A program made the translations under genes and the position numbers. Below the pieces are notes generated by a model. The model saw only the letters and a program-made list of their open reading frames with translations. It searched no databases and was not told where the DNA came from. Below are positions 34,970-37,059 of a stretch of 64,000 bases of DNA, piece after piece (the stretch's first letter is position 1; each line of letters starts with the position of its first letter). The DNA is from Cloacimonetes bacterium UBA5614 (GTDB lineage: Bacteria > Cloacimonadota > Cloacimonadia > Cloacimonadales > Cloacimonadaceae): positions 23,483 to 87,482 of the forward strand of contig DIKQ01000002.1 in NCBI GenBank assembly GCA_002424605.1. The letters run 5' to 3'.

Positions 34970-34992
34970 ATAACTTCATACAAAGTATCAAG

Positions 34993-35027
34993 GCTGAATC
35001 TGATTTACCGGGTTCAGCTTTTTTTTT
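34993..35027 (+). terminator. Rho-independent terminator after buk
   Basis: GCTGAATC / GGTTCAGC stem (one G-U pair) followed by a T9 run. Confidence 0.65.
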
Positions 35028-35122
35028 GCCTGCTTGCCACGTGGGGTCCTCCTGGGGACCACGTGGGGTAAGCCCAGGTGGATGTCAGGTGGATGGCGGG
35101 TCCGGATTAGGCGGGAAAAGGG

Positions 35123-35251
35123 TTATAAACACAGAAAGGCAGTTGTGTGCATAACATGTGGATAACTTTGGATAAAATCAGGGGGATGGGCTTAAACCCT
35201 TTATGGAAAGTGATTTAGAAAAAGCGTCTTATCCACCGCTTTTGTGCATAA
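35123..35251. promoter_or_regulatory. Cluster of DnaA-box-like 9-mers
   Basis: TGTGCATAA 35146-54, TGTGGATAA 35157-65 (perfect reverse complement of TTATCCACA), TTTGGATAA 35167-75, TTATCCACC 35229-37, TGTGCATAA 35243-51. A weaker TTATAAACA lies at 35123-31. Confidence 0.6.
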
Positions 35252-35371
35252 CTTCCCAACTACTGCAAAAACAGGCACCTACGATTTCCCTGAATGTCAG
35301 CTCAGACAGAGGTGTCTTTCCTTGACAGGTTTGCACTGTAATTATCTTGGTAACCTGATAATTTTAATGGA

Positions 35372-35677
35372 ATGAAAATGAAAAAGAAAGAACCGAGAGA
35401 CATCGCTTTTTACTTTGATTTGCTCCAGCAGTATGACTGGGACGATATCTTCTATACGTCCACTTTCACGCTGAAAAAGGACGATACTGGGAATATCATC
35501 CTCTATCCTGATGAGAAGTTTATCAATAAGAAAAGCTGTGTCTATAGCCACAACACCGTCATCTTTGAAGGCGAAATGCCTGAAATGATGCTGATTGCAG
35601 TTCAGCCGGGCCTTCGTCCGATGCACCTGAACGATATCCTGCAACTCAGGATTGAGATTATGAATGATGAATTCTGA
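35372..35677 (+). CDS. Hypothetical protein (101 aa)
   Basis: ORF overlapping the trmH-family start by 14 nt. No recognisable motif. Confidence 0.4.
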   Translation: MKMKKKEPRDIAFYFDLLQQYDWDDIFYTSTFTLKKDDTGNIILYPDEKFINKKSCVYSHNTVIFEGEMPEMMLIAVQPGLRPMHLNDILQLRIEIMNDEF

Positions 35678-36434
35678 GCAGGCTACGTTTCCGCAACTGA
35701 GCAAAAACCATCTGGCAGAGCTGAAAAAGCTTCACCAGAAAAAGTTCCGCCATCTGGAAGGCAGGACTTTGGCAGAAGGGATGAACCTGATAGAACAGCT
35801 TCATGCCAACGGGATAAATCCCCTGCAACTGATTACGGACCAGCCGGAGATGGTGCAAAAGCTGTTCAGGACCTACAGGTGTGAAGTGTTGCTTGCCAAA
35901 CCGCATGAGATCGGGCAACTGGCGGAAACGGAGACACCCCAGCCGTTGATTGGCGTTTATTTTATACCTGAACACGTGATTAAGCAATATGACACCGCCC
36001 TGTATCTGGACGGCATCCGTGACCCCGGCAACCTGGGAACGGTATTCCGCACAGCGTCCGCCTTTGGCATAGATGCGATATTCCTTTCAGCGGACTGTTG
36101 CGAAGTCTGGTCGCCCAAGGTCATCAGGGCTTCGCTGGGAAGCGTATTCTGGCTTCCTTCCATCACGGCGGACAGCGCTTGGCTTAAGGAACAGAAAGCC
36201 GAAAAAGCCGGTCTGGTGATGGATGGCTCCATCCTCCTGAAAGATTTTGTTCCGGATAAAACCCTGCCTCTCATACTGGTCATAGGTTCTGAAGGCAGTG
36301 GTATCAGCACTGAGATTGCGGAACTTTTGACCGTCACACTCAGCATCCCCATCTCTGACAGGATGGAATCCCTAAACGCCTCTGTAGCGGCTGCCATCGC
36401 CATGTATGAGACCTGTGTCAGGAAATCTGGTTGA
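35664..36434 (+). CDS. TrmH/SpoU-family RNA 2'-O-methyltransferase
   Basis: GNLGTVFRTASAFG, IGSEGSGIS and ESLNASVAAAIAMYE motifs. Confidence 0.85.
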   Translation: MMNSEQATFPQLSKNHLAELKKLHQKKFRHLEGRTLAEGMNLIEQLHANGINPLQLITDQPEMVQKLFRTYRCEVLLAKPHEIGQLAETETPQPLIGVYFIPEHVIKQYDTALYLDGIRDPGNLGTVFRTASAFGIDAIFLSADCCEVWSPKVIRASLGSVFWLPSITADSAWLKEQKAEKAGLVMDGSILLKDFVPDKTLPLILVIGSEGSGISTEIAELLTVTLSIPISDRMESLNASVAAAIAMYETCVRKSG

Positions 36435-36498
36435 CATGAGAAGCGCATCCGGAAAGTTATATCATTCGCTGAATCAGAAGCGGGAAGAAGGAGATAAT

Positions 36499-37059
36499 GT
36501 GAACATCAACATACAGAACACCGGCTGGATAGAAGTCATTTGCGGAAGTATGTTCAGCGGTAAGACCGAGGAACTTATCAAACGCATCCGCAGAGCGGAA
36601 TATGCCCGCCAGAAAATCATGGTCTTCAAGCCGATAATCGACAACAGGTATGACCATGAGAACATTGTATCCCATTCCCAGATGCAGGCGCCGTCCATTC
36701 CCATCAGTGAAGCCAGCGAGATTTATGAGCACCTGACGGAGGATGTCCAGATTGTAGCGGTTGACGAGGCGCAATTCTTTGACGAATCGCTGATAGGCAT
36801 CTGCAACGACCTAGCAGACCGCGGAATCAGGGTGATTGTGGCAGGGCTGGACCAGGATTACAAAGGCAATCCCTTTGGCTGTATGCCCCAGTTGCTTGCC
36901 ATTGCGGAATACGTGACCAAAAACCTGGCAATCTGTCTCAAATGCGGTAATCCCGCCAATAGGACGCAGAGAACCATCCACAGCAGTGAGCAGATTCTGG
37001 TGGGTTCCACCGATTCCTATGAAGCGCGGTGCCGTAACTGTCACGAGGTATTGGACTGA
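36499..37059 (+). CDS. tdk: Thymidine kinase
   Basis: GSMFSGKTEELI P-loop and C-terminal CxxC zinc motifs. The GTG at 36499 follows GAAGGAG. The ORF-track start at 36406 overlaps the upstream gene. Confidence 0.88.
   Translation: MNINIQNTGWIEVICGSMFSGKTEELIKRIRRAEYARQKIMVFKPIIDNRYDHENIVSHSQMQAPSIPISEASEIYEHLTEDVQIVAVDEAQFFDESLIGICNDLADRGIRVIVAGLDQDYKGNPFGCMPQLLAIAEYVTKNLAICLKCGNPANRTQRTIHSSEQILVGSTDSYEARCRNCHEVLD

What the first reader, a model, noticed from the sequence alone, without database searches (positions are those of the whole stretch)
35123..35251. Phased cluster of five DnaA boxes in a 400-nt intergenic region: candidate oriC or DnaA-control site
- Within ~105 nt there are:
  - one perfect DnaA box (TGTGGATAA, the reverse complement of TTATCCACA, 35157-65)
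  - four one-mismatch boxes (TGTGCATAA twice, TTTGGATAA, TTATCCACC)
- The first three start at 35146, 35157 and 35167, so they sit on one helix face.
- The region follows the buk terminator and precedes a small hypothetical ORF and a trmH-family gene.
- No dnaA or dnaN gene is in the window, and I do not see a strongly AT-rich unwinding element beside the boxes. 35341-35390 is only moderately AT-rich.
- The alternatives are a non-dnaA-linked oriC, a datA/DARS-like DnaA-titration site, or DnaA regulation of the downstream promoter (TTGACA at 35322).
Basis: partly seen in the sequence, partly recalled or inferred. Interest (0 to 1): 0.6.

Follow-up and report, generated by a model that had tools for sequence, protein, structure and literature searches.

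The report
Conserved non-origin DnaA-binding array
The five DnaA boxes are real, but they are not the replication origin: they are this genome's copy of a DnaA-binding array with fixed geometry that is conserved across the phylum Cloacimonadota and most likely helps control the initiator DnaA, as the datA and DARS sites do in E. coli.

Summary
Observation confirmed: five DnaA boxes (at most 1 mismatch) lie at 35146-35251, the densest 110-bp cluster in the 1.94-Mb MAG.

The oriC reading is rejected.
- dnaA lies on another contig (C8), flanked by box clusters.
- The only box / GC-cluster / DnaA-trio / AT-rich unwinding signature in the assembly sits just downstream of dnaA.
- In two closed relatives, one from the window's own genus, GC skew switches at dnaA and not at this array, which lies 447 and 918 kb away.

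What it is: a geometry-locked array.
- Layout: a tandem pair 11 bp apart, then a same-orientation box 86-88 bp on, preceded by an opposed box.
- It is present in 30/30 orthologous loci from 11 genera of Cloacimonadaceae, and in simpler form in most sister families.
- Outside the family it follows the stop codon of a single-copy C11 peptidase gene.
- Neighbours on either side vary, and in four genomes it lies between convergent genes.
- Nine Ca. Cloacimonas species show zero indels across it while the spacer sequence drifts.

Best reading: a non-origin DnaA-assembly and control site of the datA/DARS/DBC type. In this family it also sits in the promoter region of a SpoU-methylase-tdk operon. The distal boxes copy the E. 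coli DARS core spacing (forward-5 bp-reverse), but the DARS-critical DnaA Gln208 is not conserved. Function is untested.

The parts
34990..35031 (+). Intrinsic-terminator-like hairpin plus T-run ending the buk-type gene (context, not part of the array)
   Evidence: 13-pair stem followed by TTTTTTGCCT; the upstream ORF 33890-34969 matches the Acetate_kinase family.
35017..35124 (.). One copy of a dispersed repeat (three CCACSTGGGGT units plus two AGGTGGATG units). A separate element inserted between the terminator and the array.
   Evidence: about 18 copies in this genome and about 17 in congener G002.: alignment of 7 copies.: only a weak fold (z = -2.1).
35146..35154 (-). Box 1 (TGTGCATAA on the + strand, 1 mismatch), first of the tandem pair
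   Evidence: conserved in 30/30 family loci.
35157..35165 (-). Box 2 (TGTGGATAA, perfect), 11 bp after box 1
   Evidence: tandem 11-bp spacing in 30/30 family loci and in most sister families.
35167..35175 (-). Box 2b (TTTGGATAA, 1 mismatch), a weaker third tandem site
   Evidence: a same-orientation box-like site about 11 bp after box 2 in 33% of loci and about 22 bp after it in 22%.
35176..35228 (.). Spacer of fixed length and drifting sequence. In many relatives it carries an IHF-like motif at a fixed position, which is weak in this copy.
   Evidence: box 2 to box 4 is 86-88 bp in 30/30 family loci.: zero indels in 9 Ca. Cloacimonas species.: WATCAANNNNTTR with at most 1 mismatch in 14/46 spacers against 6.8 in shuffles, 9 of them at spacer position 39-40.: no box-like sites at offsets 33-55.
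35229..35237 (+). Box 3 (TTATCCACC, 1 mismatch), opposed to box 4 with a 5-bp spacer
   Evidence: forward box 14 bp before box 4 in 19/30 family loci (12 or 15 bp in others). Same orientation and 5-bp spacer as E. coli DARS1 and DARS2 boxes I-II.
35243..35251 (-). Box 4 (TGTGCATAA, 1 mismatch here; tTGTGGATAAgT, nearly invariant in relatives), the distal anchor box
35320..35328 (+).
   Evidence: GCTTGACAG aligned in 7 of 8 genomes of the genus. No matching -10 hexamer at 16-18 nt.
35372..35677 (+). Genus-specific 101-aa ORF between the array and the methylase gene; overlaps the next gene by 14 nt
   Evidence: 69-84% identical in all 7 congeners and absent from the other genera. No Pfam or NCBIfam hit.
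35664..36434 (+). SpoU/TrmH-family (RlmB-like) RNA 2'-O-methyltransferase gene; always the downstream neighbour of the array in this family
36406..37059 (+). Thymidine kinase gene (tdk), usually next in the same operon

Best explanation
This is not the chromosome origin. It is the window's copy of an ancient DnaA-box array that works as a non-origin DnaA-assembly site. It belongs to the same functional class as E. coli datA and DARS and the B. subtilis DnaA-box clusters.

Inferred mechanism:
1. DnaA binds the high-affinity tandem boxes 1-2 (extended by weaker site 2b) and the distal boxes 3-4.
2. The fixed-length spacer of about 55 bp is bent, probably by an IHF/HU-family protein. The two DnaA groups then contact each other in a defined geometry.
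3. The complex sequesters DnaA, or changes its nucleotide state, and so tunes initiation at the dnaA-linked oriC on contig C8.

Whether it inactivates, reactivates or simply titrates DnaA cannot be decided from sequence.

In family Cloacimonadaceae the array has also ended up directly upstream of a SpoU-methylase-tdk operon (via a 101-aa ORF in this genus), so DnaA occupancy probably modulates that operon as a secondary effect.

Shown: presence, conservation, geometry, independence from neighbouring genes, non-origin status. Inferred: DnaA binding, bending, effect on initiation and transcription.
For: Not an origin:
- dnaA is on contig C8 with box clusters on both sides.
- The only strong box / GC-cluster / DnaA-trio (CTA CTA ATA CTA CTA TAT) / 88%-AT signature in the 1.94-Mb assembly is at C8:55478-55494, just downstream of dnaA. 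The window's boxes score 2-3.5 against a threshold of 7.
- The same signature lies downstream of dnaA in relatives, while 62/64 arrays score 4.5 or less.
- In closed genome G017 (genus Ca. Cloacimonas, 2,246,820 bp), skew and coding strand switch at about 2.22 Mb/0 beside dnaA. Net G-C is positive on both sides of the array at 447 kb.
- In closed G001 (the window's genus), skew is negative at 0-395 kb, flips at dnaA, and stays positive through the array at 1313 kb.

A selected, autonomous DnaA site:
- Perfect boxes in G017 and G001 cluster only upstream of dnaA, downstream of dnaA, and at this array.
- The array is present in 30/30 loci from 11 genera, with box 2 to box 4 at 86-88 bp.
- There are zero indels across about 118 bp in nine Ca. 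Cloacimonas species while the spacer sequence diverges.
- Outside the family the orthologous methylase gene has no boxes (0/14). Instead the array follows the stop codon of a C11 peptidase gene, single-copy in the three closed genomes checked, in families f2, f3, f6, f7, f11 and f12.
- The other flank varies and is convergent in at least four genomes: MutS, M16C peptidase, secretin, TsaD.
- In the window, buk has replaced the C11 gene, yet the array persists.

Resemblance to known control sites:
- Same-orientation high-affinity boxes flank a centrally placed IHF-like motif, as in datA.
- The distal part has the DARS-core geometry: forward box, 5 bp, perfect reverse box, 3 bp, reverse box.
- An IHF-leaning HU-family paralogue is encoded.
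- DnaA's box-reading residues R399 and T435 and catalytic residues R285 and R334 are conserved.
Against:
- The IHF-like motif is only about 2-fold enriched, and it is weak in the window's own copy.
- The paralogue scores below NCBIfam's IHF cut-offs.
- The opposed-pair spacer is 3 bp in genus g2 and 6 bp in genus g4, so a strict head-to-head geometry is not universal.
- DnaA Gln208, required for DARS function in E. coli, is Asn or Ile here.
- Within the family the array always lies 20-80 nt upstream of the methylase gene's start codon, in one orientation (about 370 nt in G052; in the window's genus the 101-aa ORF lies between). That also fits a plain operator.
- Distance to the origin varies: 447 kb, 918 kb, 516 kb and about 16 kb in four closed genomes. 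No conserved dosage position is evident.
- GC skew in this phylum is weak, and I sampled 40-60 windows of 20 kb rather than whole chromosomes.
Confidence: 0.55

Rival explanations
1. Plain transcriptional operator. DnaA acts here only as a transcription factor, repressing or activating the (101-aa ORF)-SpoU methylase-tdk operon and so linking nucleoside salvage and RNA modification to replication status. It has no role in controlling DnaA itself.
For: - In all 30 family loci the array lies in one orientation directly upstream of the methylase gene. In most genera the upstream gene's stop codon is about 25 nt before box 1 and the ATG about 20-50 nt after box 4, so the promoter must overlap the boxes.
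- tdk is a sensible DnaA target: DnaA is known to regulate genes next to such clusters in B. subtilis (PMC3245932).
- A conserved TTGACA-containing motif lies between the array and the small ORF in this genus.
Against: - The array predates the association. Orthologous methylase genes outside the family have no boxes (0/14), while the array stays behind the C11 gene in six other families.
- In at least four genomes it lies between convergent genes.
- Invariant perfect boxes and indel-free 86-88-bp spacing across a phylum are more than typical operators show.
- No canonical -35/-10 pair could be placed consistently.
Confidence: 0.22
2. It is the chromosomal origin (a non-dnaA-linked oriC) or a second, auxiliary origin.
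For: - It is the densest box cluster in the assembly and is strongly conserved.
- There is a local dip in cumulative GC skew near 54-58 kb of contig C1.
- Origins separated from dnaA do occur in this phylum: G090's unwinding signature is 712 kb from dnaA.
Against: - There are no DnaA-trios and no AT-rich element.
- The intergenic gap is only about 170 nt in most genera.
- Skew on contig C1 rises on both sides overall.
- Skew and strand-bias switches lie at dnaA in G017 and G001, with the array in mid-replichore.
- A complete unwinding signature exists next to dnaA in this same genome.
Confidence: 0.03
3. The 9-mers are bound here by something other than DnaA, or the array serves a structural chromosome role (for example a domain boundary or segregation site) unrelated to initiation control.
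For: - No binding data exist.
- The array's only constant partner is the 3' end of a peptidase gene, which suggests no obvious replication logic.
Against: - The motif is the universal DnaA box. The same 9-mers flank dnaA and the unwinding signature in the same genomes.
- DnaA's DNA-reading residues are conserved.
- The tandem 11-bp spacing is the spacing used in DnaA oligomer sites.
Confidence: 0.05

Closest known systems
E. coli datA (DnaA-ATP hydrolysis and titration locus)
   Same: - Non-coding and outside the origin.
- High-affinity boxes of one orientation on both sides of a central IHF-type site, with a neighbouring weaker box on one side and an opposed box at the other end.
- Orientations and interval lengths under selection (PMC5742627; measured on NC_000913).
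   Different: - Span of 86-88 bp against 162 bp between the anchor boxes.
- Here the opposed box lies on the inner side of the distal anchor; in datA it lies on the outer side.
- The IHF site is degenerate, and weak in the window.
- Distance from the origin is variable rather than origin-proximal.
- Hydrolysis activity is untested.
E. coli DARS1/DARS2 (DnaA-reactivating sequences)
   Same: - The distal part has the DARS-core layout: forward box, 5 bp, (near-)perfect reverse box, 3 bp, degenerate reverse box.
- The full triad is present in about 11/30 family loci and the forward-5 bp-reverse pair in 19/30, including the window.
- Like DARS2, it has extra boxes and an IHF-like site nearby.
   Different: - The window lacks the third box.
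- The spacer is 3 or 6 bp in two genera.
- Sister families mostly lack the opposed box.
- DnaA Gln208, essential for DARS function, is Asn or Ile.
- Fis sites were not examined.
- DARS elements are described in E. coli and related beta- and gamma-proteobacteria (the review states this for DARS2), not in this phylum.
- ADP-release activity is untested.
B. subtilis DnaA-box clusters outside oriC (six DBCs, e.g. gcp-ydiF, yydA-yycS)
   Same: - Intergenic clusters of strong boxes that regulate neighbouring genes and also restrain initiation, probably by titration (PMC3245932).
- The dual role proposed here is the same. In G086 the array even abuts tsaD (gcp).
   Different: - B. subtilis has six clusters, mostly near oriC and without a shared fixed architecture.
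- Here there is one conserved array with locked geometry, in mid-replichore in two closed genomes.
Bacterial oriC with a basal unwinding system (boxes + DnaA-trios + AT-rich DNA)
   Same: Tandem DnaA boxes 11 bp apart. A distal box that could act through a DNA loop, as described for B. subtilis incC (PMC6669920).
   Different: No GC-cluster/trio run, no AT-rich element and no skew switch. The genome's real unwinding signature is next to dnaA.

Membership tests
oriC (basal-unwinding-system type) | Cluster of DnaA boxes | tested here: met
   Five boxes with at most 1 mismatch in 106 bp.
oriC (basal-unwinding-system type) | At least three DnaA-trios (3'-GAT-5') within 16 bp of a box (PMC8287927) | tested here: not met
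   The window's boxes score 2-3.5 against a threshold of 7. The only strong site in the genome is C8:55478-55494. 62/64 arrays in the phylum score 4.5 or less.
oriC (basal-unwinding-system type) | Adjacent AT-rich unwinding element | tested here: not met
   Maximum 72.5% AT in 40 nt, against 85-88% at the sites downstream of dnaA.
oriC (basal-unwinding-system type) | GC-skew and coding-strand switch at the site | tested here: not met
   The switch is at dnaA in closed relatives G017 and G001, and the array lies in mid-replichore. There is no V-shape on contig C1.
datA-type locus | Essential high-affinity boxes share one orientation | tested here: met
   Boxes 1, 2 and 4 are all in the same orientation in 30/30 family loci and 16/34 others.
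datA-type locus | IHF-binding site between the anchor boxes | tested here: inconclusive
   The IHF consensus occurs with at most 1 mismatch in 14/46 spacers against 6.8 in shuffles, 9 of them at one fixed position. The window's copy has 2 mismatches. An IHF-leaning paralogue exists but scores below the curated cut-off.
datA-type locus | Optimised orientations and interval lengths | tested here: met
   86-88 bp in 30/30 loci. Zero indels in nine species.
datA-type locus | Stimulates DnaA-ATP hydrolysis or represses extra initiations | not testable with these tools
   Needs biochemistry or genetics.
DARS-type locus | Core of three boxes: box I opposed to II and III, with 5-bp and 3-bp spaces | tested here: inconclusive
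   The full triad is present in about 11/30 family loci. The window has only forward-5 bp-reverse. Two genera have 3- or 6-bp spacers. E. coli reference measured.
DARS-type locus | DnaA Gln208 (head-to-head interface) and Leu290 | tested here: not met
   Position 208 is Ile in this genome and Asn in four relatives. Leu290, Phe239 and Lys243 are conserved.
DARS-type locus | Promotes ADP release from ADP-DnaA | not testable with these tools
   Needs an in-vitro nucleotide-exchange assay.
DnaA-box cluster outside oriC (B. subtilis DBC type) | Intergenic cluster of strong boxes away from the origin | tested here: met
DnaA-box cluster outside oriC (B. subtilis DBC type) | Stable DnaA binding in vivo, with an effect on neighbouring genes or initiation | not testable with these tools
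   No ChIP or expression data.

The most novel reading that the evidence does not exclude
The distal half of the array (forward box, 5 bp, perfect reverse box, 3 bp, reverse box) is a true DARS-type nucleotide-exchange core. It is coupled through an IHF-like bend to a tandem loading pair. DnaA reactivation sites would then exist, by ancient descent or by convergence, in a phylum far from Proteobacteria. In two closed genomes of that phylum no Hda-like DnaA paralogue was detected (one PF00308 hit each), and it would use a DnaA without Gln208.
Probability: 0.15. Interest if true: 0.75.

Novelty: new variant of a known kind. Interest (0 to 1): 0.5.

Why it matters
Non-origin DnaA control sites have been worked out in very few bacteria: E. 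coli datA and DARS, the B. subtilis clusters, and Streptomyces. Here an uncultured phylum carries a single such site whose box set and spacing have been held fixed across many families while both neighbouring genes changed. That gives a compact, roughly 120-bp substrate with natural spacing and orientation variants. With it one can ask whether datA-type or DARS-type chemistry is general among bacteria.

There is also a practical point. The densest DnaA-box cluster in a MAG is not necessarily the origin. Calling it oriC would misplace the origin by hundreds of kilobases and would distort coverage-based growth estimates for Cloacimonadota, which are common in anaerobic digesters.

Tried and rejected
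- GC skew on the MAG's own contigs: too weak and noisy to place an origin. There are local minima near both loci and deeper ones on C7 and C14. I replaced it with sampling of closed relatives.
- dnaN as a landmark: not found in the 69%-complete MAG. In relatives the gene after dnaA is a Disaggr_repeat protein, not dnaN.
- The search for related loci with single proteins returned almost nothing useful for synteny, so I used the genome search instead.
- Sigma-70-type promoter placement inside or after the array: no consistent -35/-10 pair.
- Continuous low-affinity DnaA filament bridging box 2 to box 4 (8 x 11 bp): rejected. Box-like similarity appears only at +11, +22 and +66, and none at +33 to +55.
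- A suspicion that the C11 adjacency was a paralogue coincidence: rejected. The gene is single-copy in three closed genomes.
- Known RNA families and tRNAs in the gap: none.
- The neighbouring CCACGTGG/AGGTGGATG repeats as part of the DnaA site: rejected. They belong to a dispersed repeat.
- Literature search for DnaA or oriC work in Cloacimonadota: nothing relevant.

Full report
**1. The observation**

They lie in a 402-nt gap. Upstream is a buk-type gene with a real terminator. Downstream is a 101-aa ORF, a SpoU/TrmH-family methylase gene and tdk.

The window is G000:C1:23483-87482 of a 1.94-Mb, 14-contig, 69%-complete MAG. Genome-wide there are 738 boxes with at most 1 mismatch (0.38 per kb). 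This is the densest 110-bp cluster in the assembly. About 0.04 boxes would be expected in that span.

**2. Where the origin really is**

dnaA lies on contig C8 with box clusters on both sides. The region downstream of dnaA has the canonical unwinding layout, conserved in G000, G001 and G017:
- tandem boxes, then two further boxes;
- a CCCC cluster;
- a 3-nt periodic run, CTA CTA ATA CTA CTA TAT, which is the complement of 3'-GAT-5' DnaA-trios (definition from PMC8287927);
- about 88% AT DNA.

An unbiased scan of the whole assembly for box + spacer + trios found three hits. The top two are this one site at C8:55478-55494, and the third is a weaker hit on C10. The window's boxes score 2-3.5 against a threshold of 7. 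Applied to relatives, clusters downstream of dnaA score 6-9.5, while 62 of 64 arrays of the window's type score 4.5 or less.

**3. Skew in closed relatives**

The MAG's own skew is too noisy to use, so I sampled two closed relatives.
- G017 is a closed 2,246,820-bp genome of genus g11, which is Candidatus Cloacimonas by named records. dnaA is at position 1 and the array at 447 kb. Sixty 20-kb samples show skew and coding strand switching from minus to plus at about 2.22 Mb/0. Net G-C is +2365 over 0-440 kb and +2065 over 440-800 kb, so there is no switch at the array.
- G001 is in the window's own genus, with a 3.44-Mb chromosome. Skew is negative or about zero in all five samples before dnaA (395 kb). 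It is positive in 11 of 13 samples between dnaA and the array (1313 kb), stays positive beyond it, and turns negative after about 2.2-2.5 Mb.

The array is therefore in mid-replichore, and the oriC reading is rejected.

**4. What the array is**

All 30 orthologous loci from 11 genera of the family carry it upstream of the methylase gene. The layout is fixed:
- boxes 1 and 2 in tandem, 11 bp apart;
- often a weaker third tandem site;
- box 4 in the same orientation, 86-88 bp after box 2;
- box 3 inverted, 12-15 bp (mostly 14) before box 4.

In nine Ca. Cloacimonas species whose flanking C11 proteins are only 49-90% identical, the roughly 118 bp from box 1 to box 4/5 align without a single indel. 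The boxes are invariant and the spacer sequence has drifted, and indels begin just outside the element. In G017 and G001, perfect boxes cluster at only three places: upstream of dnaA, downstream of dnaA, and here.

**5. It is older than, and independent of, its neighbours**

- Outside the family the orthologous methylase gene has no boxes upstream (0 of 14 loci in four families).
- In most genera of the family the upstream gene is a clostripain-type C11 peptidase with a T9SS tail, whose stop codon lies about 25 nt before box 1.
- That gene is single-copy in three closed genomes from three families, and each has a box cluster immediately beyond its 3' end.
- I anchored on the C11 gene across the phylum. 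The module (tandem pair plus a same-orientation box 85-90 bp on) follows its stop codon in f2 (5/5), f3 (1/1), f7 (2/3) and f11 (6/9). It appears weakly in f6 and f15, and f12 has a rearranged cluster.
- The gene on the far side varies. It is a verified convergent gene in at least four genomes: MutS, an M16C peptidase, a secretin and TsaD. In those genomes there is no promoter for the array to control.
- Conversely, in the window (and in G003, G004, G007 and G067) buk has replaced the C11 gene. No C11 gene was found in G000 or in the 99%-complete G006. Yet the array persists.

An element that survives replacement of either flank is an autonomous cis-acting site, not merely one gene's operator.

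**6. How it probably works**

The 9-mer is the universal DnaA box, and this lineage's DnaA keeps the box-reading residues R399 and T435, the arginine finger R285 and sensor-2 R334.

Box-like similarity extends one or two 11-bp steps beyond box 2 in a minority of loci. It is absent from the centre of the spacer, so a continuous DnaA filament is unlikely. Instead, an IHF-type consensus (T-A-A/T-C-A-A-N4-T-T-R) recurs at one fixed spacer position in loci of three families. It occurs with at most 1 mismatch in 14/46 spacers against 6.8 in shuffles. The closed genomes encode two HU-family paralogues, one scoring better against IHF models than against HU models, although below the curated cut-offs.

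The most economical model is two DnaA sub-complexes brought together across a bent spacer of fixed length. That is the design of E. coli datA, DARS2 and the left half of oriC (PMC5742627).

**7. Comparison with known sites, measured directly**

| Element | Layout |
|---|---|
| E. coli datA | box 2, a perfect IHF site 65 bp on, box 3 in the same orientation at 162 bp, opposed box 4 after 3 bp |
| E. coli DARS1 | TTATCCACT-5 bp-TGTGGATAA-3 bp-TGTGTATTA |
| E. coli DARS2 | TTATTCACC-5 bp-TGTGGATAG-3 bp-TGTGAAGAA |
| G061, Ca. Cloacimonas genus | TTATCCACA-5 bp-TGTGGATAA-3 bp-TGTAGATAA |
| The window | TTATCCACC-5 bp-TGTGCATAA, no third box |

About 11 of the 30 family loci have the full triad, and 19 of 30 have the opposed pair with exactly 5 bp.

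Several points count against DARS membership. Two genera use 3- or 6-bp spacers. Sister families mostly lack the opposed box. DnaA Gln208, required for DARS-dependent ADP release in E. coli (PMC6868365), is Asn in four relatives and Ile in this genome.

So the array works like this class of site, but I do not file it as a datA or a DARS. The B. subtilis DnaA-box clusters regulate neighbouring genes and also restrain initiation (PMC3245932). They are the closest functional analogy for the dual role I propose in Cloacimonadaceae.

**8. Secondary role in this family**

Within the family the array lies in one orientation, with box 4 about 20-50 nt before the methylase gene's start codon. The upstream gene ends about 25 nt before box 1, so the operon's promoter must overlap the boxes. 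DnaA occupancy is therefore likely to affect the methylase-tdk operon.

In the window's genus a 101-aa ORF and a conserved CCTTGACAG motif have been inserted between the array and the methylase gene. No consistent sigma-70-type hexamer pair could be placed.

**9. Limits**

Everything about binding, bending and effect is inferred. Skew was sampled rather than computed on whole chromosomes. Distance from the origin varies: 447 kb in G017, 918 kb in G001, 516 kb in G086. In G090 it is only about 16 kb, because that genome's unwinding signature sits 712 kb from dnaA. No literature on DnaA sites in this phylum was found.

**10. Verdict**

- Observation: confirmed.
- oriC: rejected, with about 0.95 confidence.
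- Best reading (0.55): a conserved non-origin DnaA-assembly and control site of the datA/DARS/DBC class with an architecture of its own, doubling as the upstream control region of the methylase-tdk operon in this family.
- Operator-only reading: 0.22.
- Novelty: new variant of a known kind.
- Interest: moderate (0.5).

Noticed in passing
window 35017-35124: A dispersed repeat lies between the buk terminator and the array. Its core is about 70 nt: three CCACSTGGGGT units followed by two AGGTGGATG units. There are about 18 copies in this MAG, about 17 in congener G002 and one in G001. It folds only weakly (z = -2.1).
   Followed up: partly
L001:640-960 (G000:C8:55400-55720, outside the window): Probable oriC of this genome. 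Downstream of dnaA lie tandem boxes, two more boxes, a CCCC cluster, the trios CTA CTA ATA CTA CTA TAT, then 88% AT DNA. It is the only strong basal-unwinding signature in the assembly.
   Followed up: yes
L132:1569-1902 (G090:C1:~674 kb) and L138 (G090 dnaA, ~1386 kb): In closed genome G090 (family f12) the unwinding signature (score 9.5) and a nine-box cluster sit upstream of a Disaggr_repeat-domain gene. That is 712 kb away from dnaA and 16 kb from the C11 array. This lineage's origin appears to have separated from dnaA.
   Followed up: partly
L136:3653-4888, L137:231-1460, L132:1943-3187: The gene following dnaA and the origin in these genomes is a roughly 410-aa Disaggr_repeat-domain protein, not dnaN. 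No DNA_pol3_beta N-terminal domain was detected in the incomplete MAG.
   Followed up: partly
window 35372-35677: A 101-aa ORF found only in the window's genus (69-84% identical in 7 congeners). It has no Pfam or NCBIfam match and overlaps the methylase gene's start by 14 nt, suggesting translational coupling.
   Followed up: partly
L135:1843-1976; L136:1879-2013; L001:2322-2456: The cluster upstream of dnaA also has a conserved layout: a tandem pair 11 bp apart plus a third box 114-115 bp on, in G017, G001 and G000. This suggests a second geometry-constrained DnaA site at the dnaA promoter.
   Followed up: no
L096-L097 (G017:C1:760001-800000): A 40-kb stretch with about 30% GC (genome 38%), very strong positive GC skew (+0.14 to +0.15) and all long ORFs on one strand. 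It is probably a foreign island or a giant-gene region.
   Followed up: no
G077 (family f14, closed 1.6-Mb genomes): This reduced-genome family lacks the C11 gene. G077, the one genome checked for boxes, has no perfect DnaA boxes within about 50 kb of dnaA. It may use a different box consensus or origin layout.
   Followed up: no
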